DNA of 64,000 bases, from the NCBI GenBank assembly GCA_038087875.1, contig CM075993.1, forward strand, positions 4,900,001-4,964,000. Reading direction: 5' to 3'. The notes beneath the pieces were generated by a model, which saw nothing but the letters and a program-made list of their open reading frames with translations, ran no database searches and had not been told where the DNA came from. This document shows positions 1-63,328 of the stretch, one piece after another. Source of the DNA: Malacoraja senta (Eukaryota). The position numbers and the translations under genes are program-made. Position 1 is the first letter of the stretch. Each line of letters opens with the position of its first letter.

Positions 1-638
1 ACATAGATATAGACATAGAAAATAGGTGCAGGAGTAGGCCATTCGGCCCTTCGAGCCTGCACCGCCATTCAATATGATCATGGCTGATCATCCAACTCAG
101 TATCCTGTACCTGCCTTCTCTCCATACCCCCTGATCCCTTTAGCCACAAGGGCCACATCTAACTCCCTCTTAAATATAGCCAATGAACTGACCTCAACTA
201 CATTCTGTGGCAGAGAATTCCAGAGATTCACCACTCTCTGTGTAAAAAATGTTTTTCTCATCTCAGTCCTAAAAGATTTCCCCTTTATCCTTAAACTGTG
301 ACCCCTTGTTCTGGACTTCCCCAACATCGGGAACAATCTTCCTGCATCTAGTCTGTCCAACCCCTTAAGAATTTTGTAAGTTTCTATAAGATCCCCCCTC
401 AATCTTCTAAATTCTAGCGAGTACAAGCCGAGTCTATCCAGTCTTTCTTCATATGAAAGTCCTGCCATCCCAGGAATCAGTCTGGTGAACCTTCTCTGTA
501 CTCCCTCTATGGCAAGAATGTCCTTCCTCAGATTAGGAGACCAAAACTGTACGCAATACTCCAGGTGTGGTCTCACCAAGACCCTGTACAACTGCAGTAG
601 AACCTCCCTGCTCCTATACTCAAATCCTTTTGCTATGA
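1..638 (-). mobile_element. CR1 LINE, 5'-truncated 3' end
   Basis: ORF 97-591 encodes the CR1 ORF2 C-terminus (LVRPHLEYCVQFWSP..RRLRGDLIETYKIL..FFTQRVVNLWNSLP), followed by a hairpin and TCTATG-type tail. Confidence 0.93.
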
Positions 639-1289
639 CCTACCTGTTGGGATCTGTGGATTGGCACTCTGTATCTTCTGTGGGTCCACGCTTCTCATTC
701 ATTGTACACTGACTGGCCTTTTCCAAATGTACTGCCTCTGAGTTCTCCAGAATAAAATCCATTGATTCCTTCCTGGTGCCCCAGATTCCCTCACTGCCAC
801 CAAGGACTGTCAAATACATTGCCAGCTTTGGATGGAGGTTCAGTGGACACAGGTTGTGCAAGCCCAAATGCCACTGTTGTGCCACATGCCAACAGTCCAA
901 CTCAAAGCCTTGTGCAATTTCCAATACCAGCAGTGCAGGAACAATGATATATACTTGCAAGAGAAAAATGTCTAATGAATTAGAAATCACAAAGCTGCTT
1001 GAAATTTGTAATAAGAATAGATTCTGTAAACAGGCAGCATGTCAGGAAACTGCTCTGGGGATTGTAAAAAGCAATTAACATGACAGGAAAGAAAGGCATT
1101 TTTTTCTGTTTGGGATTGCCCAGTGGTCAGTCTGACTACTTGGTTAACCAGACTGCCCGCAATAGGTCAAGTGGCTTAAAGAGTCGAGTGTATTTAATTG
1201 TCATATGTACCGACAATGGAAGAATTAAGATTCTTACCTGGGTGCAGCTAAACAGGCCCATTAACAGAATACACACGTGATATAATAAT

Positions 1290-1720
1290 AGAAACATAGG
1301 TGCAGGAGTAGGCTATTCGGCCCTTTGAGCCTGCACCGCCATTCAATATGATCATGGCTGATCATCCAACTCAGTATCCTGTACCTGCTTTCTCTCCATA
1401 CCCCCTGATCCCTTTAGCCACAAGGGCCACATCTAACTCCCTCTTAAATATAGCCAATGAACTGGCCTCAATTACCTTCTGTGGCAGAGAATTCCAGAGA
1501 TTCACCACTCTTTGTGTAAAAAATGTTTTTCTCATCTCGGTCCTAAAAGACTTCCCCCTTATCCTTAAACTGTGACCCCTTGTTCTGGACTTCCCCAACA
1601 TCGGGAACAATCTTCCTGCATCTAGCCTGTCCAACCCCTTAAGAATTTTGTACGTTTCTATAAGATCCCCCCCTCAATCTTCTAAACTCTAGCGAGTACA
1701 AGCCGAGTCTATCCAGTCTT
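1290..1720 (-). mobile_element. CR1 LINE 3' fragment, near-identical to the copy at 1-638
   Basis: Same ORF2 C-terminus and 3' UTR sequence. Confidence 0.92.
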
Positions 1721-2402: not shown

Positions 2403-3064
2403 TGTGGGGTCTTTGATATTGGCTGCCTTTTTGAGGGAGCCAACACCCTCTGGTTTAGGAAGAGGGAGGCAAGAATTTAAGACCCTCTACTAAACCGTGA
2501 TGGCTGTTTATCTAACGCTGCGGTACACCGGGTAAATAAATGTATTAACTAATGCAATATTCCGACAGAGTTTCAGAATATGAAAATAACCAGTTAGCCC
2601 AAATAATACGATACGATAGAACTTTATTCATTCCAGGAGGGAAATTGGTTTGCCAACACTCATAAAACACTAGAAGATAGATACAACTAAATGTGAAATT
2701 AAAGTGATGAGTGGAAAGTTCAAGATTGGGGATGTGCAAAGATTGGGTGGGGGTGGGAGGGAGGGGGAAGGGGAGTCAGTCTACCCCACGACAGTCAGTC
2801 TACCCCACGACAGAAGAGGGAGGAGTAGTACAGTCGGACATCAGGGGGTATGGAGAGAAGGCAGGTACGGGATACTGAGTTGGATGATCAGCCATGATAA
2901 TATTGAATGGCAGTGCAGGCTCGAAGGGCCGAATGGCCTACTCCTGCACCTATTTTCTATGTATCTATGTATCAGTCGATCTTATTATTTATCATGGCTG
3001 ATTTATATTCCTGACTGTCGGTGTTTGAGTTAACTGTTTGATCACCCTGTTTCTCCTTGTTTAG

Positions 3065-3141
3065 GATTTCGAATCTTTTGCCTGGCCACAATTCCAAATC
3101 CAGCAGCAACAACTCAGTCAGCGCCACTGCACCACCCCTTG
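3065..3141 (+). CDS. PSTPIP1: PSTPIP1 internal coding exon (linker before the SH3 domain); upstream exons lie outside the window or were not found
   Basis: Polypyrimidine tract + tttag acceptor and GTGAGT donor. Translates (R)ISNLLPGHNSKSSSNNSVSATAPPL, resembling the PSTPIP1 RFSGLLHG linker. Its phase-1 end joins the next exon in frame. Confidence 0.75.
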
Positions 3142-3189
3142 GTGAGTAATGGTATTGACATAAATTATGCTTTCAGAATTATTATTTTT

Positions 3190-3678
3190 GAGTGGCGCAG
3201 CGGTAGAGTTGCTGCCTTATGGCCCTGTCCCACTGTACGAGGTAATTCAAGAGCTCTCCCGAGTTTTACCAAAAATCAAACTTGTGGTAAGCATGTAGAA
3301 TGTACGTCGGAGCTCGGGGACGTCTCTTAGCGGCTCGTAACGCTAACGGCAGGTACTCGGGAAACGCGGTAAGCTCGGGAAGACTCGTGAACATTTTTCA
3401 ACATGTTGAAAAATGTCCACGAGAGCCCCGAGTACCCACGAGCGGCCATTACCGTAAATCTCCGAGTTCGAATCAGGGGAAACTCGGGAGAACTCTTGAA
3501 TTACCTCGTACAGTGGGACAGCCCCATTACAGCACCAGAGACCCGGGTTTGACCCTGACTACGGGTGCTGTCTGTACGGAGTTTGTACGTTCTCCCCGTG
3601 ACCTGAGTGGGTTTTCTCCGAGACCTTCGGTTTCCTCCCACACTCCAAAGACGTACAGGTATGTAGGTTGATTGGCGT
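3190..3678 (+). mobile_element. HE1-type V-SINE split by a Harbinger MITE
   Basis: tRNA-like head GTGGCGCAGCGGTAGAGTTGCTGCCTTA resumes after the MITE as CAGCACCAGAGACCCGGG, followed by the V-domain. Confidence 0.8.
3220..3526. mobile_element. PIF/Harbinger-type MITE
   Basis: ~34-bp TIRs TGG(CC/GG)CTGTCCCACTGTACGAGGTAATTCAAGAG; TTA target duplication at 3217-3219 and 3527-3529. Confidence 0.88.
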
Positions 3679-4246
3679 AGTCGGGATCGAACCTGGGTCT
3701 CTGGCGCTGTGAGGCAGTAGTTCTACCGCTGCGTCACCGTGCTGCCCTTAGCAGTCATGATACATTACTGTGAGTTCCTCCTGTTTCCATGGTCACTCTT
3801 TAGGAAGGCGGGGAATGCACAAAATTACTGGAGTTTGTGATCAGATTTGCTATCAATGTTGCCTTCTCTCGAGATTGATCTGGGCTGCATGAAGTAACCA
3901 TGCAGAGAGTAGACTTGGTATTCTGAGGAAAGGCTGGGATAAAGGGGATAGGTAGAGAATGTTTCCACTTGTGGGAGAGCCTAGGACCAGTGGCCACAGC
4001 CTCATAATTCAAGGCTGTTCATTTAGGAGGCTGAGGAGGAATTGCCTTAGTCAGAAGGTGGTGAATCTGTGGAATTAATTGCCACAGAAGGTTGTGGAGG
4101 CCAAGTCAATGGATATTTTTAAGGCAAAGGTCGATATATTCTTGATTAGTACAGGTGTTAGGGATTTATGGGGAGAAGGCAGGAGGTTGAGATACATCAG
4201 CCACGATTGAATGGCAGAGGTAGACTTGATGGGCTGAATGGCCTAA

Positions 4247-4954
4247 AGCCCCTGTCCCACTTTCACAACCTAATTGGCGACCTCTGCCGAGTTTCCCCTT
4301 GACTCATACTCGCAACATGGTCGCCACGAGGTCGTAGGAGGTCTTCGTAACTCTTCCTCGTGCTCGTGAGTGGTCTCCGCTTACTCGTGGCCTCAAGTAG
4401 GTCGCGGCGTTTTTCCAGCCTGATAAAAAATGTCCACGAGTAAAAAAAGGTCGGAATGGAAAAAATTGATACTTTTTACTCGTAGGTAGGTCGTAGTAGG
4501 CCGTGATGGTAGTTGTAGGTAGTCGTAGGTCGGTAACTGGCCCGAGAAAAAAGAATGCAAACAAGACATCATTTTATTATGCGATCATTTTCCACTCGTA
4601 GCTAGTAGTAGTTAGTCTTAGGTGTGGAAGACTGAGGTCGAGGGGGGTCGTAGGAGGTCGTAGACATAGTCGTAGGAGGTCATAGACATAGTCGTAGGAG
4701 GTCGTAGACATAGTCGTAGGAGGTCGTAGACATAGTCGTAGGAGGTCGTAGACATAGTCGTAGGAAGTCGTAGACATAGTCGTAGGAGGTCGTAGACATA
4801 GTCGTAGGAGGTCGTAGACATAGTCGTAGGAGGTCGTAGAAATAGTCGTAGGAAGTCTTTTACTTCGGCGAGTCAACACGACCTTGGCATTTTTTTCAAC
4901 TCGTCTAGGGTCTTCTAAACTCGTGGATTAGATCGACCAAGTGGGACAGGCCCT
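4247..4954. mobile_element. PIF/Harbinger-type MITE inserted in a CR1 3' tail
   Basis: TIRs AG..CCTGTCCCACTT / AAGTGGGACAGGCCCT; TAA duplication at 4244-4246 and 4955-4957. Confidence 0.85.
4657..4854. repeat. 22-bp minisatellite, 9 copies (GTCGTAGACATAGTCGTAGGAG)
   Basis: Directly visible tandem array with few variants, inside the MITE. Confidence 0.95.
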
Positions 4955-5375
4955 TAATTCTGCTCCTAATCACTTAGAGAGTTATGATAGTTACCTGCCT
5001 TGGACATGGGTACAGGCTTCCACTTACCACTAGATGGCAACATTGGTCTGCTTTTGCAAAAACAATGAATCCCACAAAATCCAACCACAATCTTTCTTAT
5101 TGATAAATATTGCCCACAGGCCAGGTTCAGCACTCTTAGTTCAGGGATGATCCGTTTTTCAGTCACTGGGTGATGTTCAGTGATATAAATACTCACAATA
5201 AACTGGGAGGGGGGGGGGAGATTAAGCCATGGCTTGTGATGTGCGGACAAAATTAATACCATAGATTTGTCATTGTAATTGGAATTAATTTATGAGCCAA
5301 GTATGTAAACATTCAGTTTTAACCTTGAGATAAAGTTTTTGCAGTGCTCACACTATGTTGGTTTTCTGTGTTTAG

Positions 5376-5461
5376 TGGCAGAAGAATTGTACGCCACTGT
5401 TGCTGTTACACAGGAGGAAACCCCAAACAACTACAGAGTTCTCTACGACTACACTGCCCAG
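5376..5461 (+). CDS. PSTPIP1: PSTPIP1 penultimate coding exon (start of SH3)
   Basis: tttag acceptor and GTAAAC donor. Encodes (V)AEELYATVAVTQEETPNNYRVLYDYTAQ, matching the PSTPIP1 ..VYTAI..YRALYDYTAQ region. Confidence 0.92.
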
Positions 5462-5539
5462 GTAAACGTGACACTTCCCTGTTGCCACTCTCTGGTGAGG
5501 CGCTGTCTCTCCTTGCAAAAGGGCCTTCTATATAAGTCT

Positions 5540-6253
5540 TTAAGAAGGAACTGCAGATGCTGGAAAATCGTCGCTTTACCTCCCCCCTTGACTCCATTCA
5601 AGGACCCAAGCAGTCTTTCCAGGTGAGGCAGAGGTTCACCTGCACCTCCTCCAACCTCATCCGTTGCATCCGCTGCTCTAGATGTCAGCTGCTCTACGTC
5701 GGTGAGACCAAGCGTAGGCTTGGCGATCGCTTCGCCCAACACCTCCGCTCGGTTCGCAATAACCAAGGAGGTGCAGTCCTCTTTCTTACAGTTTGGCTTT
5801 CTTCCCAACCAATTGTTCAAGCAACATGCACCTTAATTTAGTTCAACAAAGAAACTGACAAGTTACTAAAGATCTCCTGGTGGCTCAGTACTTCAACTCC
5901 CCCTCCCATTCCAAATCTGACCTTTCTGTCCTGGGCCTCCTCCATGGCCAGAGTGAGTCCCACTGCAAATTGGAGGAACAGCACCTCATGTTTCGCTTGG
6001 GCAGTTTGCACCCCAGCGGTATGAACATTGATTTCTCTAATTTCAGGTACTCCTTACTTTCTCCTCCCCTTCCCAGCTCTCCCTCAGCCCTCTGGCTCCA
6101 CCTCTACCTTTCTTCTTCCCCCCCCCCCCACCCCCCCCCCCACCCCCACCCTCACATCAGCCTGAAGAAGGGTTTCGGCCCGAAAACGTTGCCTATTTCC
6201 TTCACTCCATACATGCTGCCTCACCCGCTGAGTTTCTCCAGCACTTTTGTCTA
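5540..6253 (+). mobile_element. Penelope-like element 3' part (GIY-YIG endonuclease remnant + terminal repeat), with a short inverted 5' piece
   Basis: NLIRCIRCSRCQLLYVGETKRRLGDRFAQH..LEEQHLMFRLGSLHPSGMN. Flanked by CCTTCTATATAAGTCT direct repeats at 5524-5539 and 6254-6269. Confidence 0.88.
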
Positions 6254-6367
6254 CCTTCTATATAAGTCTGCAGTGTGCAGGAAGGAACTGCAGATGCTGG
6301 ATTATAGCGAGGATAGACACAAAATGCTGGAGTGACTCAGCATCTCCGGAGATGCTGCCCGACCGGC

Positions 6368-6590
6368 TGGTTCGATCCTGACTATGGGTGCTGCCTGTTT
6401 GTACGTTCTCCCCGTGACCTGCGTGGGTTTTCTCCAGGTGCTCAGGTTTTCAACCACACTCCAAAGACGTACAGGTTTGCAGGTTAATTGGCTTGGTAAA
6501 ATTGTAAATTGTCCCTAGTGTGTGTAGGATAGTGTTAGTGTACGCGGATCGCTGGACCTGTTCCTGTGCTGTATCTCTAAACTAATCTAA
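6368..6590 (+). mobile_element. HE1-type SINE (5'-truncated)
   Basis: GGTTCGATCC B-box, V-domain and CTAAA tail. Confidence 0.8.
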
Positions 6591-6854
6591 AGCTATTTGC
6601 TAAGTGAAATTTTTATTTTGTCCCCGATAGCGACCCCAGAAATGTCCTTGAAAGACTGTAGAAGTGATCCATTTCTCCATTTGCTTGCTATAAATATATT
6701 TTCTTAAGATAATAAATGTCGTTTATATTGCTTTTCTTTGATTGGGATAGATACTGGGGGGGGGGGGAGGAATTGGGGGTCAGTTTTATGACCTGGGCTG
6801 CTGGTAAAATGAACTCGTACCTCCTGCGTTCTCAACCCTCTGTGTCTTCGTCAG

Positions 6855-7567: not shown

Positions 7568-7975
7568 TGTGGAAAGGAACTGCAGATGTTGGTTTAAACC
7601 GAAGATAGACACAAAACGCTGGAGTCACTCAGCGGGACAGGCAGCATCTCTGGAGAGAAGGAATGGGTGACGTTTTTGGGTCGAGATCCTTCTTCAGGTA
7701 GCCCCGGCATTCCCTCTCTCTATCCCTCCCCCACCCAAGTCGCACCAGCTTCTCGTTTTCACCCAACAAACGGCTAACAATGGCCTGTTTCCTTTATCAT
7801 CGTTACTTTCTTGCGTATCTTTCATCCATTGTTCTTTATCTCTCTACATCATCGTCTATATCTCTCGTTTCCCTTATCCCCTGACAGGTCTGAAGAAGGG
7901 TCTTGACCTGAAACGTCGCACATTCCTTCTCTCCAGAGATGCTGCCTGTCCCGCTGAGTTACTCTGGCTGTTTTT
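7568..7975. mobile_element. Penelope-derived foldback element in the putative PSTPIP1 3' UTR
   Basis: Inverted terminal-repeat arms around a Penelope 3' UTR segment. Confidence 0.75.
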
Positions 7976-9704: not shown

Positions 9705-11091
9705 GTTGGTTTATAATTTGCTTTTCAGAAATGAATGTTTTTTTTTGGCTTCTTGGGAAAGCTACTTTGATACTGATGATGAAACTCGCCTTTATAACTG
9801 CGTCCATTTTCAGAGCCGCACAACATAGCGACCGGCCCTTTGGCCCATCTCGTCCATGCAAGCGATGCCCATGTGCGCTGACCCCATTTGCCCGCACGAG
9901 ACACAAAGTGCTGGAGTAACTCAGCGTGTCAGACAGCATCTGATGGAGAACATGGACAGGGAAAGTTTTGGGTCAGGACACCTCTTCAGTCTCAAGAAGG
10001 GTCTCGATCCAAAACATCTCCTATCAATGGTTGAGAGAGACGCTGCCTGATCCGCTGAATTACTCCAGCACTTTTTTGTAATCCAACATCTGCTTAGGGT
10101 TTCGGCCCGAAACGTTACCTATTTCCTTCGCTCCATAGATGCTGCTGCACCCGCTGAGTTTCTCCAGTATTTTTGTGTACCTTCGATTTTCCAGCATCTG
10201 CAGTTCCTTCTTTAATAATCTGCTGTTCCTTATCCCTCTAACATTTTAGATGGATATTGTTTGACGGTTTCCAGCAGCTGCAGGTGGTATTTGTCACCCA
10301 TAGATGGTGCCAGAGGTCCACCTTGCATTTTTTAATCATACCACAATTAAATAGTTGCAGTACAGCACAAGAATAGGCCCTTTAGCCCACAAAGTCTGTG
10401 CCAAATTCCAGGCACCCACCACTCTTATGAAAAAAATTGCCAGAGACATCTTTAAACTTTCCCCTTCTCACTTTAAAGTTAAATCCACTAGTCTTTGACA
10501 ACTCCACCCAGGGAACAAATTCTGACTGCCTGCCCTATCCAAGCCTCTCAATCTTACAAACTTCTATCAGGTTCTCCCCTCAGTCTCCAGCGCTCAAGAG
10601 AAAACAATCCAAGTTTGTCCAACCTCCCCTTATAGTTAATACACCAACATCAACCCAGGCAGAATCCTGGTAAACCTCGGCTGCACCCTCTCCAAAGCCT
10701 CCACATCCTTCCTGTAATGGGGTGACCATAACTGCACACACTATTCCAAATGTGTATCAAGGAACTGCAGATGCTGGTTTAAACCATAGACACAAAATGC
10801 TGGAGTAACTCAGTGGGACAGGCAGCATGTCTGGAGAGAAGGAATGGGTGACGTTTTGGGTCAAGCCGGATTCGACCTGAAACGTCACCCATTCCTTCTC
10901 TCCAAAGATGCTACCTGTCACACTATTTCAAATGTGGCCTAACCGGCATTATATGAAGCTGCAACACGACTTCCTGACTCTTATCCCGAACGCCGGGATC
11001 ACTAGGTGATTCCTATTTTAAATGTTCTTGTTTTAACCGGCACTGCTGATGGAAATAGTGCAAGAATAATCTGCAGCAGTGAGGATAGACA

Positions 11092-11335
11092 ATTTCAGGT
11101 AGTCCCTGCTTTCTCCTTCTTTCCCCTCCCCTTCCCAGCTCTCCCACATCCCACTGTCTCCGCCTCTTCCTTTCTTCTTCCCGCCCCCCCCCCCCACCCT
11201 CACATCAGTCTGAAGAAGGGTCTCGACCCGAAACGTCGCCTATTTCCTTCGCTCCATAGATGCTGCCTCACCCGCTGAGTTTTTCCAGCATTTTTGACTC
11301 CCTTCGATTTTCCAGCATCTGCAGTTCCTTCTTAA
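11092..11335 (+). mobile_element. Penelope-like 3' terminal fragment with intact hammerhead core
   Basis: AATTTCAGGTAG ORF end and C-rich tract, then CTGAAGAAGGGTCTCGACCCGAAACGTC. Confidence 0.8.
11210..11237 (+). ncRNA. Minimal type-I hammerhead ribozyme motif (representative copy)
   Basis: CUGAAGA, A, stem II GGGU-CUCG-ACCC, GAAA, palindromic ACGU stem III, GUC cleavage triplet. Confidence 0.7.
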
Positions 11336-14097: not shown

Positions 14098-14125
14098 GAC
14101 GTTTCGGGTCGAGACCCTTCTTCAG
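14098..14125 (-). ncRNA. Minimal hammerhead ribozyme motif, intact core
   Basis: Reverse complement reads GGT-CTGAAGA-A-GGGT-CTCG-ACCC-GAAA-CG-TC-ACC. Confidence 0.65.
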
Positions 14126-17004: not shown

Positions 17005-17805
17005 TAGTCATCCCTTCCCACCCAAACCACCCCCTCCCCTGGTACCTGCCCCTGCAACCGCAGAAGATGCAACACCTGTCGCTATACCTCCTCCATCGAC
17101 TCTGTCTATGGACACCGACATTCCTTCCAGGTTAGGCAGAGGTTCACTTGCATCTCCTCCAACCTCATCTATTTTGTAACCGCTGTTCAAGATGTGGACT
17201 CTTATACATTGGCGAGACCAAACGCAGATTGGGCGATCGTTTCGCTGAAACACCTTCGCTCAGCCCAACCTGATCTCCCAGTTGCTGGACACTTACATTT
17301 CACTGTACATCTTGTATGTGTATGTGACAAATAAAGTTGACTTTAATTCTCCTTCCCATTCCTACACAGACCTTTCTGTCCTCGGTCTCCTCCATTGTCA
17401 GAGTGAGGCTAAACGCATATTGGAGGAACAGCATCTCATATTTTGCTTGTGCAGCTTACAGCCCAGTGGCATGAATATTGATTTCTCTCACTTCAGGTAG
17501 CCTCGGCATTCCCTCTCTCTCTATCCGTCCCCCACCCAAGTCACACTAGTTTCTCATTTTCACCCTACAAACATCTGACAATGGCCCGTTTCCTCCATCA
17601 TCATTACTTTTTTGCATATCTTTCATTCATTGTTCTTCACATCTCCACATCACCATCTATATCTCTCGTTTCCCTTATCCCTAACCAGTGTGACCGGAAA
17701 CGTCACCCATTCCTTCTCTCCAAAGATGCTGCTTGTCCCGCTGAGTTACTCCAGCTTTTGGTGTCCATCTTCAGTTTAAACCAGCATCTGTAGTTCCTTT
17801 TTACA
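17005..17805 (+). mobile_element. Degenerate Penelope-like element (GIY-YIG remnant + terminal repeat)
   Basis: ..LLYIGETKRRLGDRF.., FNSPSHSYTDLSVLGLLHCQSEAKRILEEQHLIF. Confidence 0.82.
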
Positions 17806-22764: not shown

Positions 22765-25700
22765 AGGGCCTGTCCCACTTACGCAATTTTTTGGGCGATT
22801 TGCCAGCACCAGTCAAAGTCGCAGCAGGTTGCCAAAAATTTTCAACATATTGAAAATCCAGCAGCGACCAGAAAAAGGTACGACTTTTTGGGCGACTACT
22901 CATGACCATACAGGTGACATGTCCTTTGTGCACCTGGGGGGTGAGGCACGAGTTGGTTGGAGGATCTCCACAGTCTGCTCCAAGATTGCCATTCACAGGT
23001 CCAGGCAATAGTTTGTTTGTTTGTTTTTGCATTAGTTTATTGTCACGTGTACTTGAGGTACAGTGAAAAGCTGTTTAGTTGCGTGCTATCTAGTCAACGG
23101 AAAGACTATACATGATAACAATGAAGTCGTCCACAGTGTACGAGTAAAAGATAAAGGGAATAACGTTTAGTGCAAGATAAGTCCGATTAAAGATAGTCCA
23201 AGGGTGACCAATGTGGTAGATGGTTTGTCAGGATCGCTCTCTAGTTAGTGAGAGCATGGTTCAGCTGCCTGATCACAGCCAACAGATAGTCGGTCCCACT
23301 TCTGAGGATATAACAATCCCTGAATGTCCCTGTAGAGAGAGCACAGGGTGAAGAATTGTTCTATGAAGGCCTTCTGGAATCCTGTGCTACAGGGGCTAGA
23401 GTACTTCCTGGACACGGGTGGCAATGTTTTAATTTGACGTTTTAATTTAATGAGTATTTGTAAATCCAGAATTGAGAATTATGTTAATGTTGTGAATATT
23501 TTAAGATGAAGACGTAAAGCATTGTTAAATGCATTTCTTTTCCTCAGATGTTTGATGCGCTCAAAGTGAAGGCACAAAAGACTGCTCAGGCTCAGCAAGA
23601 GAGAGAATAAAGCTTGGATTCTGGGAGGTGGGGTGGGACAGAGCAAAACTACAGAACCACCCAGCAGAATGCTCGATTGTTAGGCCGAGTAATTCACCAA
23701 CCACAAATAAAGTCGGTCAACAATGTGAAGCAGATTACAATAGGTAAAGGGATGTGTTCTACGCTGCTCCTTGCAAACTTTTCCCACACCCTAAATCTAA
23801 TTCCAAAGCAGAAGTCACTGGAGGCCAGCTGCCCATTAGCAAAGCAGTCACGCAAACAAACAAAAAATCTGCCCTTTGAAGTGCAATAGAAAGTGAACAA
23901 GATTACCGCGATGGTCTTTTGATGTTGACTGCAGCACCTCAGACTCTGCAGTCAGTTTGTTATAAACCTCCACAAGGTAATTTTTTTTACAGCTCGATAA
24001 GAAATAACACAATGGCCAAGGGATATTTGTCGTGACCACACAACACTTGTTTTCTACCAGTAAACGTGTTTTAGGTTGGTAATCAAGTATTTTTGAAATG
24101 TTATAGGTAAACGTGACATGTGACATAAGGCATAAATTTCAAGAACTGATAACTTTGCAGATTATTGCACAAAGTCTGCACTTTGAACAGGATTCAGTTT
24201 TAAGCACAAATTAATGTGACTTAAATGGTTTCCAATAAAATGTAGCAACCAAAGGAGGCACCATTTTATTTGTAAAATACGACAAAATAATGTCAGCTTA
24301 ATTTGTTCGCCTGTCCAAGACAAGTGCGGCAGAGCTAAAGTCTTTAATGCGTTTTCATTGCCAATTAAATTAAGTTTATTTTCCTTGCTTGGCAATTCTA
24401 CTTCTGTGGAATACAGTTCAACAGCACCGCACCAGTCACCTTTACTCATGTTATCTCAGACAGTGTACACCTTCATATATCAAGAGTCAGGTGTCATTTA
24501 TACCTGGTTCAAAGCCAAAGTGCATATTTGACAGCCTGCAAACACAAAAATCCGACAGGGCTCATAAGGTTAATAGAACAGTCTAAGGGTGATGGAGGTC
24601 TCGACAAAACACTTTTGGAAGGATGAACCCAGGTGGATGATCAATGTTTTTAAATGTCTCCCTTTGTCCACTATGATTCATTGTTACCTTAATTATTGTT
24701 GGCTGGTATCAGGTTGGGAGCTGTGGGCTTCAGGAGGCAGAATGAGTTATTAATATTTACACTCCCCAACCAGCTGACTAGCCAAGACTAAGCTGCTCCC
24801 CAGCAAATACCACTGATAAAAGATAAAAGTTGGATTAGTTCCAACTTCGATCTGAGAACTCCAATCCACTCACAATTAGAGAGTAACTCGGTGGGACAGG
24901 CAGCATCTATGGATAGAAGGAATGGGTGACGTTCCAGCTCGAGATCATTCTTCAGACTGGAGAAGGGTCTCGACCCGGAACGTCACCAATTCCTTCTATC
25001 CAGAGATGCTGCCTGTCCCCCTTAATTGCAATTTGCTGTCCCAGATTTTGAACTATTTCCTAAAGGAAACATCTTTTCCATTTACCCTTTTTAAACCAGT
25101 TATGATTTTATACATACATGTCCATCAAACTTTCGCTCAATCTTTTTTTGCCCCAAGAACCATCCCAGCTTCTCTAATCTAATTCCGTTTAAATCTCTCG
25201 TCCCCGGAAACATTATGTTAAGTCCAAATACGACTGAAGTTCTGTCAATTGTTATTGCTGAGGGATGACTTCTTTATTGGATCCGAATCCTGCGTAGCTC
25301 CAGGTTGAAAACAGAAATCAATGCAAGCTTTTCCATTTTAGCTGCCTGGATTGCTACAAGATTATATTGTGAAAATACTAGACAGTGTATATTGACCCCA
25401 GTATTTAAAGGAAAACCAACCTCATCTGGCAATATTGGTATTCCAGTGATGCACAAAGTCAAATTGAGCAATCAGGGTTTAGGATTGTGTACGATCTTTT
25501 TTTTAAAATCCATCAACTATTATATTATAAAAGCTGAAAGGAAGGATTGTTGGAGGTTTTACACCCAGTAGCCCCATGCCTCAGACTATACTTAATTTCC
25601 ACCAAGACAAGCTTTCCCCACAATGCGTGAAAGATAATTCATCCAGTCTGCAATCACGTACATTTAATACGGAAATGCAACGGCACTCAAAGCAACACAG

Positions 25701-27729: not shown

Positions 27730-28965
27730 GCAGGAACTGCAGATGCTGGTTTACACCGAAGATAGACACAAATTGCAGGAGTAACTCAACGGGACAGGCA
27801 GCATCTCTGGAGAGAAGGAATAGGTAATGTTTAGACTGAAAGTCAGGGGAGGGGGAGAATAGAGATATGGAAGGGCGGGATGTGAAAACAACAGATTAAA
27901 GCAGATGATGCTAAGGAAATGTAGAATGGTTCACAGCTAGCTGAGGGGAAAGTGACAATGTGGCATACAATCAGTAATATTTAATCAGGACAGTAGAACT
28001 AGTCGGAGATCTAGTAGGAGGGAGGGAAGGACAGGGAAAGCAAGGGTTACTTGAAGTTAGAGAAATCAATATTCGTACCGCTGGGTTGTAAGCTACCCAA
28101 GCAAAATATGAAGATGGGTCTCGACACGAAACGTCACCCATTTCCTTCGCTCCATGATGCTGCCTCACCCGCTGAGTTTCTCCAGCATTTTTGTCTACAA
28201 GCAAAATATGAGGTGCTGTTCCTCCAATTTGTGTTGGGCCTCTTTTTGACAGTGGAGGCAGCCCTGGATTGAAAGGTCAGTATGAGAGTGGGAGGGGGAG
28301 TTAAAGTGTTTAGCAATCGGGAGATCACATAGGTCTAGGAGGACCGAGCGAAGGTGTTCATCGAAACGATCGCCGAGCCTGCGCTTGGTCTCGCCAATAT
28401 ATAGTCCAAACCTGGAACAGCGGATACAGTGGATGAGGTTGGTGGAGGTGCAAGTGATCCACTGCCTCACCTGAAAGGACTGTCAGGGTCCTTGAACAAA
28501 GTCGAGGGAGGAGGTATAGGGACAGGTGTTGCATCTCGTGTGGTTGCAGGGGAAAGTACCTGGGTAGAGGGTGGTTTGGGTGGGAAAGGATGAGTTAACC
28601 AGGGAGTTGCGGAGGGAATGGTCTCTGCGAAAAGGTAGACAAAAATGCTGGAGAAACTCAGCGGGTGAGGCAGCATCTATGGACCGAAGGAAAAACGTTT
28701 CGGGTCGACACCCTTATTCAGACTCTGCGAAAATGTATGGAGATGGGAAGACGTGGTCGGTGGTGGGCTCCTGTAGGAGGTGGCCAATTTGTCAGAGGAT
28801 TATGTGCTGTACGCGACGGCTGATTGCCGTGAAAGGTGAGGACTGGGGGGATTCTGTCCCTGTTGTGACTGAGGGGAGGGGGAGCAAGAGCGGAGCTGCT
28901 GGATACCGAGGAGACACGTGCGGGCGCCTCATCTATGATGGAAGAAGGGATTCACCGTTCCCTTT
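27730..28965 (-). mobile_element. Penelope-like element with nested Penelope terminal-repeat insertions
   Basis: TCTSTNLIHCIRCSRFGLYIGETKRRLGDRFDEHLRSV..KLEEQHLIFCL on the minus strand. Confidence 0.82.
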
Positions 28966-31407: not shown

Positions 31408-31654
31408 GATAGACACAAAATGCTGGAGTAACTCAGCGGAACAGGTAGCATCTCTGGAGAGAAGGAATGGGTGACATTTCGGGTCAAAACCCTTCGTCAG
31501 ACTGATCCGCCTGAAGAAGGATCTCGACCCGAAACGTCACCCATTCCTTCTCTCCAGAGATGCTGCCTGCCCCGCTGAGTTACTCCAGCATTTTGTGTCT
31601 CTCTTCGATTTAAACCAGCATCTGCAGTTCTTTCCTACACATTTTGTCTCCTCC
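31408..31654. mobile_element. Penelope-derived foldback insertion with 13-bp TSD
   Basis: TCCTCAAATGCTC at 31395-31407 and 31655-31667; back-to-back hammerhead motifs at the centre. Confidence 0.85.
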
Positions 31655-41083: not shown

Positions 41084-41303
41084 GATAGACACAAAAAGCT
41101 GGAGTAACTCAGCGGGACAGGTAGCATCTCTGGAGAGAAGGAATGGGAGACATTTTGGGTCGAGATTTCTTCAGACTGAAAAAGGGTCTCAACCCAAAAC
41201 ATCACCCATTCCTTCTATCCAGAGATGCTGCCTGTCCCGCTGAGTTACTCCAACCTTTTGTGTCTATCTTCGGTGTAAACCAGCATCTGCAGTTCCTTCC
41301 TAC
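41084..41303. mobile_element. Penelope-derived foldback insertion with 10-bp TSD
   Basis: ACATAATCAA at 41074-41083 and 41304-41313; inverted arms. Confidence 0.85.
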
Positions 41304-43820: not shown

Positions 43821-44014
43821 CTCTAGTAATCGTAACTTGGTTGCCTTTGGAACATGACCTTGATCTGTTAACACCACATGGTGGTTTGGCTGTATCAGCC
43901 ACCACATTCAAAAAAATGAATACACAAGCATTTTCACTCATCAGAACTAAAGTGAAAGTTAGTTATCTTTGATCCCAGGGTACTGTCTAATAAGTGTTAG
44001 ATCCCAGGGTACGT

Positions 44015-44042
44015 CTGAAGAAGGGTTTCGGCCCGAAACGTT
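44015..44042 (+). ncRNA. Minimal hammerhead ribozyme motif, UUCG-loop variant
   Basis: CTGAAGA-A-GGGT-TTCG-GCCC-GAAA-CG-TT. Confidence 0.65.
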
Positions 44043-47000
44043 ACCTATTTCCTTCGCTCCATAGATGCTGCTGCACCTGCTGAGTTTCTCCAGCATTTTT
44101 GTGTACCCACTGTCTAATAAGACTAGTCGAGCTGCTGATATTAAAGCTTCATCCAACACAAATCTTTAATGCATTCACCAAAAATAATGCTTTGAAGGTC
44201 AAATGAAGTATAAACATAATGCAACATTAACAACTGGGTATTGAGTTACTAGGATCCTTTTGACAATCTATTGGCCCAAGGTCAAGTGTACCGAGAGATG
44301 CCAGACAGGATTATTTTAAAACAACTGGACAAATAGAGTTACATTCTTTGTCATGTGAGAAAAACTGCTCCAGCTGGAGGAAAATTAATAAAGGATTCCC
44401 AATCTAGTGTCCATGCTAGAAAATGAGTGGGTAAACAACTGGCATGAAGTGAAATGGTGGACATGGTCAAAGTATTAGTATTTCCGACAGATTCTAAATT
44501 ATGAACACTGATTGTTTTCAGCAAAAGTATTTTAAAATAGCCTTGTAAAACAATTTTATGAAGAAAACAGGACAGCTCAATTTTACTTTATCTTATTCCC
44601 TTTCTTCTTCTGATAGACTTTAAACTTTAGAGATACAGCGAGGAAACAGGTCTTTCGGCCCACCCTGTACATTGACACTATCCCACACGAGGGGCAATTT
44701 ACAATCTTACCAAAGCAAACATGTACGTCTTTGGAATGTGGAAGGAAACCAGTGCACCCAGAGAAAACCTACACGGTCACAGGGTGAACATACAAACTCC
44801 ATACAAACAGCACCCGTATTCAGGATCCTAATCCGGGTCTCCGGCACTGTAATGCAGCAACTCTACCACTGCGCCACTGTGCCGCCCTCAATAGTAGCAA
44901 GTATAGCAGCAACTCTTTCAGATTAACAGGTCTATTGTAACAGCAGTGTGTCTGGAATCTGTCAAATGATGCTTGGGTACAGCCATCCATTGGCCATTTA
45001 GTGGTTGTGCGTATTTAAGCTTTACTGGAGAACAATCAGAAGCAGAATGCCAGCGCACTCCAAACAAAGTTTCACTCACTCAGACTTGAATTCTAAACTA
45101 GAACAATCGGTTTGCTTTATCGTACATTGCCTACACATAAGTATTCTTACAATGAAATTTGCTTAGTTCAAATAAGAAATAAATTCACAATCTAAAACGT
45201 ACTATAGAAAGGCAGGCTTGGGTAGTTTGAGTGCCCATCTTATTTGGTGCAAACATATGACAAACCTGTTCACAGTCCTTCAAGACCGTATGAAAATGTA
45301 GAGTTTAAAAATTCAATGATGCAAAGATGTTCAAAGCTCAAATTTAAAAAAGGAATATTACACTTGAAACAAGTTGGGCTTTAATAGGAGTCAGAACTAT
45401 CCTTGTACTTTAGGCATCAGCGTCAAACACTCCCAGGTTTAATACACCACTGCTGCAGCATTTAACAGAACTTGCTATCAGTATACATTTTGGAGTATAG
45501 CCATTTTACTGACAAGGTATCAGAGAACAGCCAGCAACACTGAAACTATATACAAGCAGCAGTGTGTTCGAAAAGGAAAATAAATATCTGAAACACAAAC
45601 TGGAGGGCAGCCAAGATGCTGCTTTTAAATGAACACTGAGGTACGACACTGAGTTAGTATAACCAAGAAAATCCCAAGTGTAGTCTCTCATCTGTGCTAT
45701 TACATCTTCTCAGAAAGAGCAATGATTATTTCAACTGAACAGAAACACATGGTTCCCAGTCACCAACCACTAGCACATTCACTGGGTGCACCAATGATGG
45801 CAAGGCACCAACGATCATTTCTTGCTGTCTCAAGGAGTGACAGAGGACCCTTTTTTAACTGTTCCAGGACTTTTGGGATAAGAATTCAGACCCTGCTAAA
45901 ACCTTGCATACACGATGAACTAACTCTGGACAGAACCAGCAGCAAAAGTTCAATGGTACAAAAAAAGACTACTGCAAATCAACTTGTCAAACGGAGCACT
46001 GTCGAACACCTTTGTGATTGTATGCAGCCAACTGTACAGGCAATTATCAATGGAACCATTCAGAAACATTAACTGCTTCTAGGAAAAAGCTCAAGCGACA
46101 TCTCCAGTTAAATAGATCTTCCAGTTTGTACAATTCTTAAGTTGTAATACTTGTCTGGTTAGACACAAGTGTACAAAGACCAGCAATTTAGAAGCTAATT
46201 AATTCAGCGACATAAACAGTCCAAAATACACATTAGTATTTCTTAATACTGAAATCCAGGGTTTAAAAACTCTCGATTGCAATTAAATCTCAACACAGTC
46301 GGTCATACTTTATTAGCAAAGTATGTTTTGCAACATACAAGGAATTTGATTTGCCATACAGTCATACTACCAGTGTACCAAGAACAAAATCCTGGTTTCA
46401 TAGCTGCATTAAAATTGTTTCCAGCATTTGGATGCTTTCCCTTCCAGTTCTGCAAGATCTCTGCAGCTAGAGACATGTTCAGCCAAGCTTGCAGTTCCAA
46501 GGCTTCAACTTTCAAAGTACTTAGCAATTTTTAATCCTATACCTGGGTGGTAAAGTGTTGAGAAATTTACTGTATTGTTCAACAACAATGTTGATTTATA
46601 AAGACATTACTTGGACAGCACTATCCTACTCTTCATAATTATTAATTTCTCATTTCTTTCAGATTAAAGATGATATCAGTTTTAACCAACAACACCAAGC
46701 AATATCAGACCTACAGGTTTACACATGGGTTACCTACAGAAACTTCCCTTGGTTTCGGGAGATCATATTCCACAATTCAGATTAAAAAATAGAACACAGA
46801 ACAATACAGCACAGGAATAGGCCCTTTGGTCTGCAATGTCTGTTGCCAAACGTGATGCCAAGTTACATTATTCTCCTCTGCCTGACTGTGATCCACATCC
46901 TGCATATTCAAGGCCTCTTTAACAGCCTCTTAAATGCTACTATTATATATGCCTCCACCATGACCCTTGGCAGTCCATTCCAGGCATCCACCACTCTGCG

Positions 47001-47586
47001 TAAAGAAACGTACCCTGCACATCTCCATTAAACCTTCCCCCTCTGACCTTAAATGACTGTGACATTTCCACCTGTTGGAAAAAGGTTTTGACCATCTCCG
47101 AATATATGTCTCAATTTTACACACTTCAATCAGGTTGCCCTACACTTCCTTATAGCTAATTCCCTCTAATCTAGGTAGCCTCTTCTGCACCCACTCCAAA
47201 ACCCCCACATCTTTCCTGTAGTGGGGCGACCAGAACTGCACTCAAAACATCAATTGCAGCCCAAGCAACATTTTATAAATATGCAATATTACTTCTTGAC
47301 TCTTTTATCCAATGCCCCGACCGATGAAGGCAAGCATACCATACACCTTTTTTACATAATCTCCTGTGTTGCCACTTTCAGATAGCAATAGACTTAGATC
47401 CAAAGATCATCACTGCTCTCAAGGCTCTTGTCATTAACTGTGTACTTTCTCATTACATTCAACTCCCCAAAATGAAACACCTCGCACTTGCCCAGATTAA
47501 ATGCCCAAGTGCCATCTCCCCGCCCATATCTGTAACTGATCGATATCCTGCTGTATCCGTTGATAGCCTTCTTCACTCTCTATAGC

Positions 47587-48743
47587 ACTGCCCTGAGCTG
47601 GTTCATCTCCTACCTCAAAGGTAGGAGTTTCTCGACTAACATAGGCAACTCTTTCTCCTCCCCAGCTAATCTCTGCTGTGGGGTTCCACAAGGTTCCATC
47701 CTTGGCCCCATTCTCTTCTCCCTGTATATGCTCCCCTTAGGCCAAGTCATTGAAAGGCACGGCATTTCCTTTCATTGCTACGCAGACGATACACAACTCT
47801 ATCTCCCCCTGAAGCCCAAAAACCAATCAAATCTGTTTAACCTTACCCACTGCCTCGAGAATATAAAGTGTTGGATGGCCCAGAACTTCCTCCAACTAAA
47901 CGAGAGTAAGTCTGAGGTCATCCTTCTCGGCCCCTCGGACTCAATCAAAATGATAGCAGGCAGCCTTGGAAGCCTTATCCCACTACTCAAACCTCACGTC
48001 AAAAACCTTGGCGTGATATTTGACTCAGCACTGAAATTTGACAAACAAGTCAATGCCGTGGTAAAAGCTAGCTTCTTTCAGCTTCGGACGATAGCTAAAA
48101 TAAAACAATTCCTCCAGTTTGATGACCTCGAAAAGATCATCCACACATTCATCTCCTCCCGCCTAGATTACTGCAACTCCCTTTACACTGGCATCAGCCA
48201 ATCTTCCCTGTCCCGCCTGCAACTGGTCCAAAACGCCGCAGCGAGACTCCTGACGGGCACCCGAAAAAGGGACCACATCACCCCGATCCTGGCCTCTCTC
48301 CACTGGCTCCCTGTGCGGTTCCGTATAAACTTCAAGATCCTCCTCCATGTCTACAAAGCCCTCAATGGGCTTGCCCCCACCTACATAAAAAGTCTTCTCA
48401 CCCACCACTCCACCTCCAGGCCCCTCAGATCAGCCGACGGGGTTGCTGAATATCCCACGGTCTAGGCATAAGCTCAGGGGCAACCGCGCCTTTGCGGTTG
48501 CAGCCCCTAGACTGTGGAACAGCATCCCCTTTCCCATCAGAACTGCCCCCTCCATCGACTCTTTTAAGTCAAGACTAAAGACTTATCTATACTCCCAAGC
48601 CTTTCCTGACGTCCTCTGAGTGAGGGCTACATGTATATATGTACATAGTTTGTTTTGTTTGTGCTATTCTTATAACAAATGTAAAGCACTTTGGCCAACG
48701 AGAGTTGTTTTTTAAATGTGCTATATAAATATATGTGACTTGA
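47587..48743 (+). mobile_element. L2 LINE, 5'-truncated, near-intact RT C-terminus
   Basis: GVPQGSILGP, YADDTQLY and SRLDYCNSL motifs; one frameshift near 48438; L2 tail ending TGACTTGAC; TSD CTATAGC at 47580-47586 and 48744-48750. Confidence 0.92.
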
Positions 48744-55281: not shown

Positions 55282-56215
55282 TGAAAGGAAAAGTGACAAT
55301 GCTCGCGGACTTTGTGCAAAAAACAAACAAACAAACTGCAAACAGAATGGAAACAGAGATGCTGCACATGGAGAATGTGCAGACACCGTACAGACAGCAG
55401 CAGCAGAGGTCAGGATCGAACCCCTATCTCTGGTGCTCTGAGGCAACAGCTGCGCCACTCTCCCGCCCTTAAATGTTAATGCTTTTTTATCTTTCCACAG
55501 ATGCTACTTTGCCTGCAGGGTAATTCCAACATTTTCTGATTTGATTTCAGATATTCAACATACGCAGGTATTTTTAATGTTCAGGTAGGAAGCTCTCTAG
55601 CCCAAGGGAACAAGGAGTTTGCACGGGATGCTATCGTTTGTATCTCAACAAACATTCATTAATAATGTTTCTGGCATCTTGCTGTGTGTACATTAGTTGG
55701 GTGGTTTGTTTATTGAACAACAAATGAGGCAGTGCCTGCATGCAGGAAGTGCTAAAAAATTATCAACCCCCGCCCCCCACCTGTGTTCACCTATTGCCTG
55801 ACATGCTTTGTTATGCCCCTCATATCATGGCTATGCAATTTACATATTCAGAGACCATAAGCGATACAACATAAATGCAAATTTATTCTGTTAAACTAAA
55901 TAAAAAAAACAATTTTAATGCACTGTATATTTGTCCTTTACTCATTAACAGTTTTATCTATAGCACACAATTCCTGTAAGTGTCAAACCTACTTCCAATA
56001 TATATTTTTCCATTGCACTCTGTTGATAACACATTTATAGAACAGCATTGTCACTGAAACATCGTACTTCACAAGGACCCAGTGACTCCAGAAATAATTT
56101 TCTGACAGGATATGTTTCTCAGGCGCACATCAGCAACATTTTTTTGAACTTTGACTTATTTTGCAAATTTTGGGATTTTAATTACTCTGCTTAGCGTACA
56201 GGGTGCACAAGAACC

Positions 56216-56429
56216 TGGAGTAACTCAGTGGGACAGACAGCATCTCTGGAGAGAGGCAATGGGTGACGTTTCGGGTCGAGACCCTTCTTCAGACAGTCTG
56301 AAGAAGGGTCTCGACCTAAAATGTCACCCATTCATTTTCTCCAGAGATGCTGCCTGTCCCGCTGAGTTACTCCAGCATTTTGTGTCTATCTTCGGTTTAA
56401 ACCAGCATCCGCAGTTCCTTCCTACACAC
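56216..56429. mobile_element. Penelope-derived foldback with back-to-back hammerhead motifs
   Basis: Centre reads ..CTTCTTCAGAC A GTCTGAAGAAG..; flanks GCACAAGA(A/G)CCTG. Confidence 0.85.
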
Positions 56430-62919: not shown

Positions 62920-63328
62920 ACGCAATAACCAACTTGATCTCCCGGCAGCTCAGCACTTCAACTCCTCCTTCCATTCAAAATCCGACCTTTCTGGCCTGGG
63001 CCTCCTTCCTGGCCAGAGTGAGGCCCACCGTAAATTGGAGGAGCAGCACCTCATATTTCACTTGGGTAGTTTACACCCCAGCCATATGAAAATTGTCTTC
63101 TCTAATTTCAGGTAGTCCCTGCTTTCTCCTCCCCTTCCCAGCTCTCCCTCAGCCCACTCTTCCTTTCTTCTTCCCCCCCCCCCCCACCTTCACATCAGTC
63201 TGAAGAAGTGTCTCGACCCGAAACGTTGCCTATTTCCTTCGCTCCATAGATGCTGCCTCACTCGCTGAGTTTCTCCAGCATTTTTGTCTACCTTCGATTT
63301 TCCAGCATCTGCAGTTCCTTCTTAAACA
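62920..63328 (+). mobile_element. Penelope-like element 3' end
   Basis: AQHFNSSFHSKSDLSGLGLL..KLEEQHLIFHLGSLHP, followed by a terminal repeat with a hammerhead-like motif near 63200. Confidence 0.85.

What the first reader, a model, noticed from the sequence alone, without database searches (positions are those of the whole stretch)
11205..11245. Minimal hammerhead ribozyme motif carried by the window's Penelope-like repeats
Seen: the motif CTGAAGA-A-[stem II]-GAAA-CG-T(C/T) recurs many times. Intact cores are at 7890-7917 (+), 11210-11237 (+), 14098-14125 (-), 44015-44042 (+) and ~56265-56292 (-), with many decayed copies. Stem II keeps pairing between subfamilies (GGGT-CTCG-ACCC vs GGGT-TTCG-GCCC). 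The first stem I pair varies compatibly (T-A, T.G, C-G). The free core position N7 is A, T (60964, CTGATGA) or C (~31495-31500, minus). Stem III is reduced to the palindrome ACGT/AACGTT. The motif lies just 3' of GIY-YIG ORF ends (6162, 11210, 63200). Established: Penelope-like elements carry minimal type-I hammerheads thought to cleave as dimers through a palindromic stem III, and an extra A after A9 occurs in natural hammerheads. Inference: this genome holds a very high-copy ribozyme-motif family, on the order of one copy per few kb here.
Basis: partly seen in the sequence, partly recalled or inferred. Interest (0 to 1): 0.85.

Follow-up and report, generated by a model that had tools for sequence, protein, structure and literature searches.

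The report
Minimal hammerhead beside a retroelement's cap
This is one of more than 42,000 exact copies of a known kind of tiny self-cutting RNA motif carried by a Penelope-like jumping gene, and joints left in the genome suggest that the element's RNA starts 3-4 letters before the motif and is likely cut there in the living animal, which has been an open question for this class.

Summary
Confirmed. Window 11210-11237 is a minimal type-I hammerhead motif in the pseudo-LTR of a Neptune-type Penelope-like element (PLE), in what is likely a cartilaginous fish. The genome holds 42,315 exact copies (control 0). A near-intact element has motif - 1,221-codon RT + GIY-YIG ORF - motif. Invertebrate homologues (32-58% protein identity) carry the motif at the same place, with two-sided covariation in helices I and II. 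The class was described in 2014, so the motif is a new member of a known kind.

The new part is the record of RNA ends. Solo copies and template-jump junctions begin at -4..-1 of the core, in an initiator-like TCAGTC and often behind an extra G, which suggests a capped start. A second class of junctions restarts at the first base after the predicted cut: 10 of 33, against 1.5 expected (hand-scored), two of them joined straight to poly(A). Likely mechanism: a dimer- or protein-assisted cut removes the capped first ~31 nt from part of the element RNA. No RNA assay was possible. A reverse-transcriptase stop at the palindrome would leave a similar footprint.

The parts
11091..11102 (+). 5' boundary of this copy: last codons and stop (TAG at 11100-11102) of the PLE endonuclease ORF
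   Evidence: same sequence ends the ORF fragment at 62921-63115
11103..11204 (+). pyrimidine-rich pseudo-LTR spacer between ORF stop and the motif
11205..11210 (+). initiator-like TCAGTC; predicted transcription start at 11206/11207 (-4/-3 of the core); also half of the TCAG-T-CTGA palindrome at which many inverted pairs are centred
   Evidence: start inferred from genome-wide boundaries and junctions; initiator consensus is recalled, from no call; palindrome
11208..11239 (+). minimal type-I hammerhead motif: 2-bp helix I (11208-11209 with 11238-11239), core CTGAAGA 11210-11216, bulged A 11217, helix II 11218-11229, GAAA 11230-11233, palindrome ACGT 11233-11236, C17 at 11237
11237..11238 (+). 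predicted cut site (after GUC); position +29 = 11238 is where junctions elsewhere in the genome restart
   Evidence: hammerhead rule
11238..11335 (+). pseudo-LTR tail; copies of the young subfamily end at about +93-96 or +128-132; holds the AGATGCTG/CAGCATCT stem
7890..7917 (+). second core, first pair of helix II is G.U
14098..14125 (-). intact core, solo copy starting at about -2
44013..44108 (+). solo copy of the young (UUCG-loop) subfamily, -2 to about +94, intact core 44015-44042, with a 13-bp target duplication (43982-43994 and 44109-44121)
56205..56426 (.). head-to-head pair; minus copy has an intact core at 56265-56292
5575..6274 (+). 5'-truncated PLE copy: GIY-YIG fragments (78-89% identical to the full-length ORF), spacer, damaged core at 6162, tail
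62921..63326 (+). 5'-truncated PLE copy: endonuclease C-terminus, stop 63113-63115, core at 63200 with a helix II mismatch, tail
17026..17804 (+). older PLE copy with the CX4CxxC linker and endonuclease; hammerhead core partly deleted
28053..28963 (-). decayed PLE RT-thumb/endonuclease fragment with tail copies inserted in it

Best explanation
The motif is the minimal type-I hammerhead of a Neptune-type Penelope-like retrotransposon, and it likely sits at the very 5' end of the element's RNA, where it is predicted to cut off the capped first ~31 nucleotides from part of the transcripts. SHOWN: the motif lies in both pseudo-LTRs of a full-length RT + GIY-YIG element, its helices covary across distant homologues, and genomic copies and junctions have two preferred 5' ends, at -4..-1 of the core and at +29, the base after the predicted cut. 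INFERRED: transcription starts at the initiator-like TCAGTC, which leaves only 3-4 nt before the core and so a 2-bp helix I. Helix III can form only between two motifs through the ACGU/AACGUU palindrome, probably with help from the element's protein. The element's RT starts internally at the tail (+94 or +131) and copies back to the RNA's 5' end, making the ~100-135 bp solo copies. Most templates are uncut. A cut RNA leaves an uncapped end at +29 that RT joins to another RNA 3' end, or that closes into a circle, giving the junctions and tandem arrays that start at +29. The cut would therefore act as a partial switch on the fate of the element's mRNA and not as a required step of each insertion. 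The dispersed copies are dead-on-arrival by-products that decay neutrally.
For: Full-length element L065: cores at 2723 and 6667 flank ORF 2886-6548 (RVT_1 E 5.9e-6, GIY-YIG E 0.002, both below Pfam cut-off; CX4CxxC linker). In 80 metagenome loci of protein homologues, 15 descriptor hits are on the ORF strand and 2 on the other; shuffles gave 0-2. One variant reads like the Acropora Neptune motif printed in the PMC4209133 supplement. On 13 aligned motifs 84.6% of cells pair against 63.0% shuffled (0/500) and 12-45% when slid; 16 core positions are invariant, N7 is A, C or T. Young subfamily: 16 of 34 core-bearing copies end 5' at 0..-6, against 8 of the other 18 over the next ~285 nt; many show 7-21 bp target duplications. 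Contigs from four public runs show loose ends before -3/-2. Of 33 ORF-start-to-core junction events, 20 restart at -4..-1 and 7 at -8..-6; G precedes 10 of the 14 starts at -3/-4, at least 5 not templated by the ORF (hand-scored). Of 33 ORF-start-to-tail events in +10..+42, 10 cover +29 against 1.5 expected (1 of 200,000 simulations); two have poly(A) joined straight to +29. Two of the 8 tandem arrays first examined start at +28/+29: 138 bp x 11 and 165 bp x 4. Literature: a PLE hammerhead cleaves only with the element's protein, and RT starts internally (PMC11167929, section 3 read).
Against: No cleavage assay and no raw RNA reads; only contigs of guessed-RNA runs were available. Solo insertions show no significant excess of 5' ends at +29 over +31 (about 21 vs 11 events on contig C1, p=0.22), and 2 of 230 profile hits begin there. 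In older subfamilies about 8 of 92 tail-end junction events start at +28/+29, and microhomology joints dominate (first 100 of 243 matches seen). Junctions were scored by hand, not blind, against a uniform null. 5 of the 10 events at +29 begin with A, which could be an untemplated A before a +30 restart; 5 begin with G and cannot be read that way. A smaller unexplained peak of 4 events lies at +42. The hammerhead fold is not the minimum-energy fold of monomer or dimer in ViennaRNA. In Anolis no RNA-seq reads began or ended at the cut (PMC11167929). All five full-length elements seen with a 5' core keep sequence upstream of the proposed start, which needs a second tandem copying event or an upstream start.
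Confidence: 0.68

Rival explanations
1. It is the same PLE hammerhead motif, but the +29 restarts come from RT stalling at the 3' edge of the palindromic duplex or helix II and then jumping. The RNA is not cut, or too rarely to matter.
For: The AACGUU palindrome ends at +28 and can pair between two RNAs (-3.1 and -5.7 kcal/mol). Five further events lie at +30 and four at +42. No significant +29 excess among solo copies. Minimal hammerheads cleave poorly in vitro (PMC4209133).
Against: The duplex is weak. The peak falls on the one base predicted beforehand. Poly(A) joins directly to +29 in two events. No event at +29 shows an added G before it, unlike the -3/-4 class. The core is invariant across homologues with 32-58% protein identity.
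Confidence: 0.2
2. The CAG|T one base before the core is a 3' splice site, as in Drosophila virilis Penelope, where the intron end maps to helix I. The 5' boundaries of copies would then reflect splicing, and helix I would be completed by an exon.
For: A long pyrimidine tract and CAG precede the core in all subfamilies. Older subfamilies have CAG|GT at the ORF end. There is precedent in PMC4209133 and PMC2377424.
Against: The donor-like GT is absent in the young subfamily. The flanks of solo copies are target-site duplications, not exons. No GT..AG joint was among the 15 joints shown of 136. Starts cluster at -4/-3, not at -1. Invertebrate homologues lack the CAG.
Confidence: 0.07
3. The motif in this lineage is a relic. 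It is kept for another job (promoter or RT/protein recognition) or only by recent common descent, and is catalytically dead because helix I has shrunk to 2 bp.
For: Homologues mostly have 3-5 bp in helix I. Flanking tail sequence is as well conserved among local subfamilies as the core. The core overlaps the initiator-like site. Naiad PLEs thrive without hammerheads (PMC8557442).
Against: The five differences among local subfamilies all fall on tolerated places: loop II twice, two wobble changes, C17/U17. D. virilis has a 2-bp helix I (PMC4209133). The +29 junction peak.
Confidence: 0.05

Closest known systems
Minimal type-I hammerheads (min-HHR) of metazoan PLEs (Cervera and de la Pena 2014, PMC4209133; main text parts 1-2 of 4 and supplement part 1 of 3 read)
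   Same: No helix III, palindromic 15.2-16.2, bulged base between 9 and 10.1, G10.1-C11.1, location in both pseudo-LTRs, many dispersed singles. The Acropora Neptune motif in their Fig. S3 reads like those in loci L128, L131 and L189, whose RTs are 43-58% identical to this element's.
   Different: Helix I is 2 bp (4-5 bp in their Schistosoma families). Copy number is 42,315 exact against about 4,000 in coelacanth and 9,000 in Xenopus. No cartilaginous fish is in their Table S1, and four shark/skate terms gave 0 hits in the supplement text (one file could not be searched). They had no in vivo evidence.
Poseidon element PAc of Anolis (PMC11167929; section 3 read in full)
   Same: Hammerhead at the pseudo-LTR/ORF junction, two internal RT start sites that define a 30-40 bp tail (here +94 and +131), and uncut RNA as the main template.
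   Different: Other clade. In PAc the ORF starts inside helix II; here the ATG is at +164. They found no RNA-seq ends at the cut, whereas here genomic junctions restart at it.
Drosophila virilis Penelope (PMC2377424 passages; PMC4209133)
   Same: Internal TATA-less promoter with initiator in the pseudo-LTR; 2-bp helix I.
   Different: Its start lies 46 bp before a 75-bp intron that ends at helix I, and it keeps a short helix III. Here the inferred start is 3-4 nt before the core and no intron was found.
Animal non-LTR retrozymes (bioRxiv 10.64898/2026.07.22.740005; parts 1 and 3 of 5 and passages read)
   Same: Tandem arrays derived from PLE pseudo-LTRs. Here 191-384 bp units hold all or most of the core. 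The preprint reports retrozymes in one chondrichthyan.
   Different: Almost all copies here are dispersed solos or inverted pairs. The arrays that start at +29 lack the core.
5' ribozymes of R2 and other LINEs (HDV-like), and viral 5'-UTR hammerheads that promote cap-independent translation (PMC13725137 passages)
   Same: Self-cleavage at the 5' end of a coding RNA.
   Different: Those are other folds or viral RNAs. R2 ribozymes free the element from a co-transcript (recalled), whereas this cut would remove the element's own cap.

Membership tests
PLE minimal type-I hammerhead | Conserved core CUGANGA ... GAAA ... UH | tested here: met
PLE minimal type-I hammerhead | Helix II with G10.1-C11.1 and a bulged base after A9 | tested here: met
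   G-C in 13 of 13 aligned motifs; bulged A invariant
PLE minimal type-I hammerhead | No monomeric helix III; palindromic 15.2-16.2 | tested here: met
   CG in all local subfamily majorities and 13 of 13 aligned motifs; CGCG in L158 and L199
PLE minimal type-I hammerhead | Helix I closing the core, with covariation | tested here: met
   first pair 13 of 13 paired in four pair types, second 12 of 13; only 2 bp in this genome
PLE minimal type-I hammerhead | Located in the pseudo-LTRs flanking a PLE ORF, sense strand | tested here: met
   L065, L066, L069, L074, L075; 11 of 29 homologous loci checked had a core within 420 nt of the match end, several others being too short
PLE minimal type-I hammerhead | Self-cleavage as a dimer or with protein help | not testable with these tools
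   indirect only: junction peak at +29
EN+ Penelope-like element, Neptune type | Single ORF with RT and C-terminal GIY-YIG endonuclease | tested here: met
   1,221 aa ORF; homologues carry RVT_1 and GIY-YIG marks
EN+ Penelope-like element, Neptune type | CX2-5CxxC linker between RT and EN (Neptune and Nematis, PMC8557442) | tested here: met
   CX4CxxC in L065 and at window 17068 ff
EN+ Penelope-like element, Neptune type | Partial tandems, inverted 5'-truncated copies, optional 30-40 bp tail | tested here: met
EN+ Penelope-like element, Neptune type | RT phylogeny groups with Neptune rather than Nematis | not tested
   no named reference RTs were at hand; assignment rests on the linker and on the match of homologues' motifs to the Acropora Neptune motif
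Non-LTR retrozyme | Tandem repeats with a hammerhead in each unit | tested here: not met
   not for the window copies, which are solos and inverted pairs; met by arrays elsewhere, such as L301 and L312-L315
Rfam hammerhead families | Match to an Rfam hammerhead model | tested here: not met
   no hammerhead family among 14 matches at E<=1; the motif lacks helix III

The most novel reading that the evidence does not exclude
The genome keeps a fossil record of a PLE minimal hammerhead cutting in vivo. The ribozyme is the first thing transcribed, 3-4 nt from the cap, and removes the cap from a sizeable share of element RNAs: 10 junction events at +29 against 27 at -8..-1. Because it needs a second motif to fold, it could work as a concentration-dependent switch between translated mRNA and uncapped, circle-forming template. 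Tens of thousands of dispersed intact copies in host transcripts could act as partners in trans.
Probability: 0.45. Interest if true: 0.75.

Novelty: new member of a known kind. Interest (0 to 1): 0.55.

Why it matters
The motif class is known, but its in vivo activity and role are called 'still a mystery' (PMC7761336, passage) and 'still unclear' (PMC8557442, passage), and the one biochemical study found no RNA ends at the cut (PMC11167929). A young, very abundant family allows RNA 5' ends to be read from DNA junctions. Two end classes appear: one likely capped, just before the core, and one at the predicted cut. This gives a precise test for any PLE-rich genome, and a concrete role for the ribozyme, namely decapping part of the element's own RNA. 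It also offers an origin for retrozyme-like arrays. The copy number is large: an estimated 70,000-90,000 descriptor-passing motifs and about 0.8 million fragments, extrapolated from 399 kb. That is well above the counts in PMC4209133. Five searches of the held library found no report of this family or of such junctions. Two key papers (Lunse et al. 2017; Arkhipova et al. 2017) were not held and may bear on this.

Tried and rejected
Rfam scan: no hammerhead hit, only hairpin artefacts of the inverted pairs. N7 variation inside this genome as evidence of selection: weak; N7=T is 1.2% of N7=A and 2.5 times the A6=T control. N7=T as a product of inverted junctions: A precedes the core in 13 of 100 N7=T against 5 of 100 N7=A matches, p=0.08, not established. 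Host exons spliced onto the CAG|T site: rejected because upstream flanks are target duplications. Excess of solo 5' ends at the cut: not significant. Tail-end junctions of older subfamilies: dominated by microhomology. Folding energies: z-scores +0.5 to -1.6, no support for an unusually stable fold. Expression: no RNA holder listed on record; four contig sets were laid, none shows starts, ends or strand. Strand bias of copies in the window: 31 plus, 27 minus, none. Host gene of the window: not identified by Pfam. Lunse et al. 2017 and Arkhipova et al. 2017 were not held. A paper search for the extra-G cap signature found nothing, so that reading is recalled knowledge. Earlier scan findings: none by sequence, 358 by the words hammerhead and Penelope, none from this genome among the 8 shown.

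Full report
1. Observation. Positions are given relative to the first C of the core (+1 = window 11210). Window 11210-11237 reads CTGAAGA-A-GGGT-CTCG-ACCC-GAAA-CG-TC. A descriptor for a minimal type-I hammerhead finds 6 cores in the window and none in 20 Markov controls. It finds 18 in 40 other 10-kb stretches, 14 of them with helix I of 2 bp or more; the 5 controls gave 0, 1, 0, 0, 0. All hits belong to one repeat family. The 40 stretches were taken at round coordinates on large contigs, not at random. A profile built from ten natural copies finds 58 fragments in the window and 172 in 399,200 bases elsewhere, with 0 in reversed sequence; 44 head-to-head pairs account for 88 of the 230. A 27-letter pattern has 42,315 exact matches in the 1.94-Gb genome, control 0. 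Rfam does not detect the motif.

2. The carrier. GIY-YIG fragments precede the cores at 6162 and 63200. Walking upstream in the genome gave near-intact elements. L065 has a core at 2723, an ORF at 2886-6548 (1,221 codons; RVT_1 and GIY-YIG, both under Pfam's cut-off; CX4CxxC linker) and a core at 6667. The closest named proteins are from rays and sharks (63-73% identity), followed by marine invertebrates at about 50%, so the host is likely a cartilaginous fish. Partial tandems and inverted 5' copies are common. The linker defines Neptune and Nematis (PMC8557442, passages). No tree with named references was built.

3. Is the fold under selection? Inside the genome the evidence is modest. Copies decay mostly at CpG. 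The five differences among subfamilies all fall on tolerated places, but flanks are conserved too. Distant homologues are more telling. In 80 metagenome loci of related RTs, the descriptor hits 15 times on the ORF strand and twice on the other; shuffles gave 0-2. Of 29 loci checked, 11 have a core within 420 nt of the match end, mostly at about 100-140 nt; several of the rest end too soon. I aligned 13 motifs: 4 from this genome and 9 of the 17 metagenome hits, leaving out those with other loop or helix III lengths, near-duplicates and doubtful hits. The core is invariant apart from N7 and H17. 84.6% of cells pair against 63.0% in shuffles (0/500) and 12-45% when partners are slid. The first pair of helix I occurs as U-A, U.G, A-U and C-G. 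The rows are related, so the shuffle count is not a probability. One variant reads like the Acropora Neptune motif in the supplement of PMC4209133.

4. Where copies begin. In the young subfamily (UUCG loop), 34 core-bearing copies from 90 loci were mapped against L065. 16 end 5' at 0 to -6, 8 between -7 and -290, and 10 run on beyond about -290. 3' ends fall mostly at +93-96 (19 of 34) and +128-132 (8 of 34). Many solo copies show 7-21 bp target duplications, as does window 44015. This excludes host exons spliced onto the CAG|T site. Contigs of four public runs show loose ends before -4 to -2. A genome-wide gap pattern for ORF start joined to core gave 86 matches, 33 events after collapsing arrays and one duplicate. 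20 restart at -4..-1, 7 at -8..-6, 5 at +3..+6 and 1 further up. G precedes 10 of the 14 starts at -4/-3, and at least 5 are not explained by the ORF; one reads poly(A)-G-start (scored by hand). TCAGTC fits the initiator consensus, and an extra 5' G is the mark of a copied cap. Both are recalled; my search for the second found no paper. Penelope has an internal initiator-type promoter (PMC2377424, passages). I infer a capped start 3-4 nt before the core, which would explain the 2-bp helix I. With internal RT initiation as shown for PAc (PMC11167929), copying from the tail back to that start gives the ~100-135 bp solos.

5. Trace of the cut. The ORF-start pattern showed perfect tandem arrays. 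Of 8 examined, two start at the predicted cut: 138 bp x 11 exactly at +29, and 165 bp x 4 at +28/+29. Two start at -4 and -1, one of them after poly(A). Four start at -36, -58, -106 and about -129, with short shared sequence at the joints. A gap pattern for ORF start joined to tail gave 53 matches, 39 events. Of the 33 that restart in +10..+42, 10 cover +29 against 1.5 expected under uniform placement (1 of 200,000 simulations; 10 of 30 against 2.0 for +20..+42). These 10 include the two arrays that prompted the test. Two have poly(A) joined to +29. Against: the scoring was by hand and not blind. Five of the ten begin with A, which may be untemplated. Five more events at +30 fit a CCT microhomology with the ORF, and four lie unexplained at +42. 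Solo copies show no significant excess at +29 over +31 (p=0.22), and older subfamilies show about 8 of 92. An RT stop at the edge of the palindromic duplex would look similar, and arrays could have grown at the DNA level after one junction event.

6. Mechanism. [quoted passage not shown] Most templates stay uncut, in line with PMC11167929. A fraction is cut after nt 17, loses the capped ~31-nt leader, and leaves an end that RT joins to RNA 3' ends or that circularises. Whether cutting silences the RNA, frees it as template, or allows cap-independent translation (as for viral 5' hammerheads, PMC13725137, passages) is open. The fold is not the predicted minimum-energy state, which fits low activity.

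7. Known versus new. PMC4209133 defines this class, with counts of about 4,000 and 9,000 in coelacanth and Xenopus, low dimeric cleavage and no in vivo data. A 2026 preprint ties animal retrozymes to PLE pseudo-LTRs and includes one chondrichthyan (its supplements are closed and may list this family). Reviews call the in vivo role unresolved. Searches found no paper on this family or on junctions at the cut. Lunse et al. 2017 and Arkhipova et al. 2017 could not be read. Verdict: a new member of a known kind. Its added value is the very high copy number and an indirect, testable record of a cap-proximal start and of cutting in vivo.

Noticed in passing
window 9985-9994, 24951-24960, 41170-41179, 56292-56297, 57582-57585, 60958-60961: Head-to-head pairs are often centred on the TCAG-(A/T)-CTGA palindrome that overlaps the inferred start. 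Fold-back priming of the finished cDNA end would explain them; not tested beyond listing.
   Followed up: partly
G000:C5488:71450-80334: Tandem array of 192-bp units (46 matches) from +4 of the core to the ORF start; it lacks the first three core bases.
   Followed up: no
L301 (G000:C1:28902540-28907175), L312-L315: Retrozyme-like arrays of 219-384 bp with an intact core in each unit: natural tandem substrates for dimeric cleavage.
   Followed up: partly
L065:2773-2898: An upstream ATG at +51 opens a 41-codon frame that overlaps the main ATG out of frame in the young subfamily; it appears to close early in the CTCG-loop subfamily. Read by eye.
   Followed up: no
L065 ORF start, +166 to +284: Junction acceptor ends cluster 0-120 nt into the ORF, several with short poly(A), which suggests prematurely ended short transcripts.
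   Followed up: partly
G000 contig C1, 14 of the first 100 rows: One junction form restarting near +31 recurs at many places, perhaps a secondary non-autonomous family lacking the core.
   Followed up: no
L065 ORF residues ~170-500: A long proline/serine-rich repetitive stretch lies between the N-terminal domain and the RT, making the ORF about 1,220 aa against about 900 in many homologues.
   Followed up: no
window 5380-5460 (+): A short exon-like stretch encodes YRVLYDYTAQ, which recalls the start of an SH3 domain (recalled; Pfam gave no hit). The window may be intronic.
   Followed up: partly
window 97-639 (-), 1371-1673 (-), 47536-48465 (+): Fragments of other LINE-type elements; the last has RVT_1 at E 1.5e-15.
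   Followed up: no
window 4577-4927 (-): A tandem repeat that translates as repeated TTSYDYVYDLLRLCLRPPT units; not examined.
   Followed up: no
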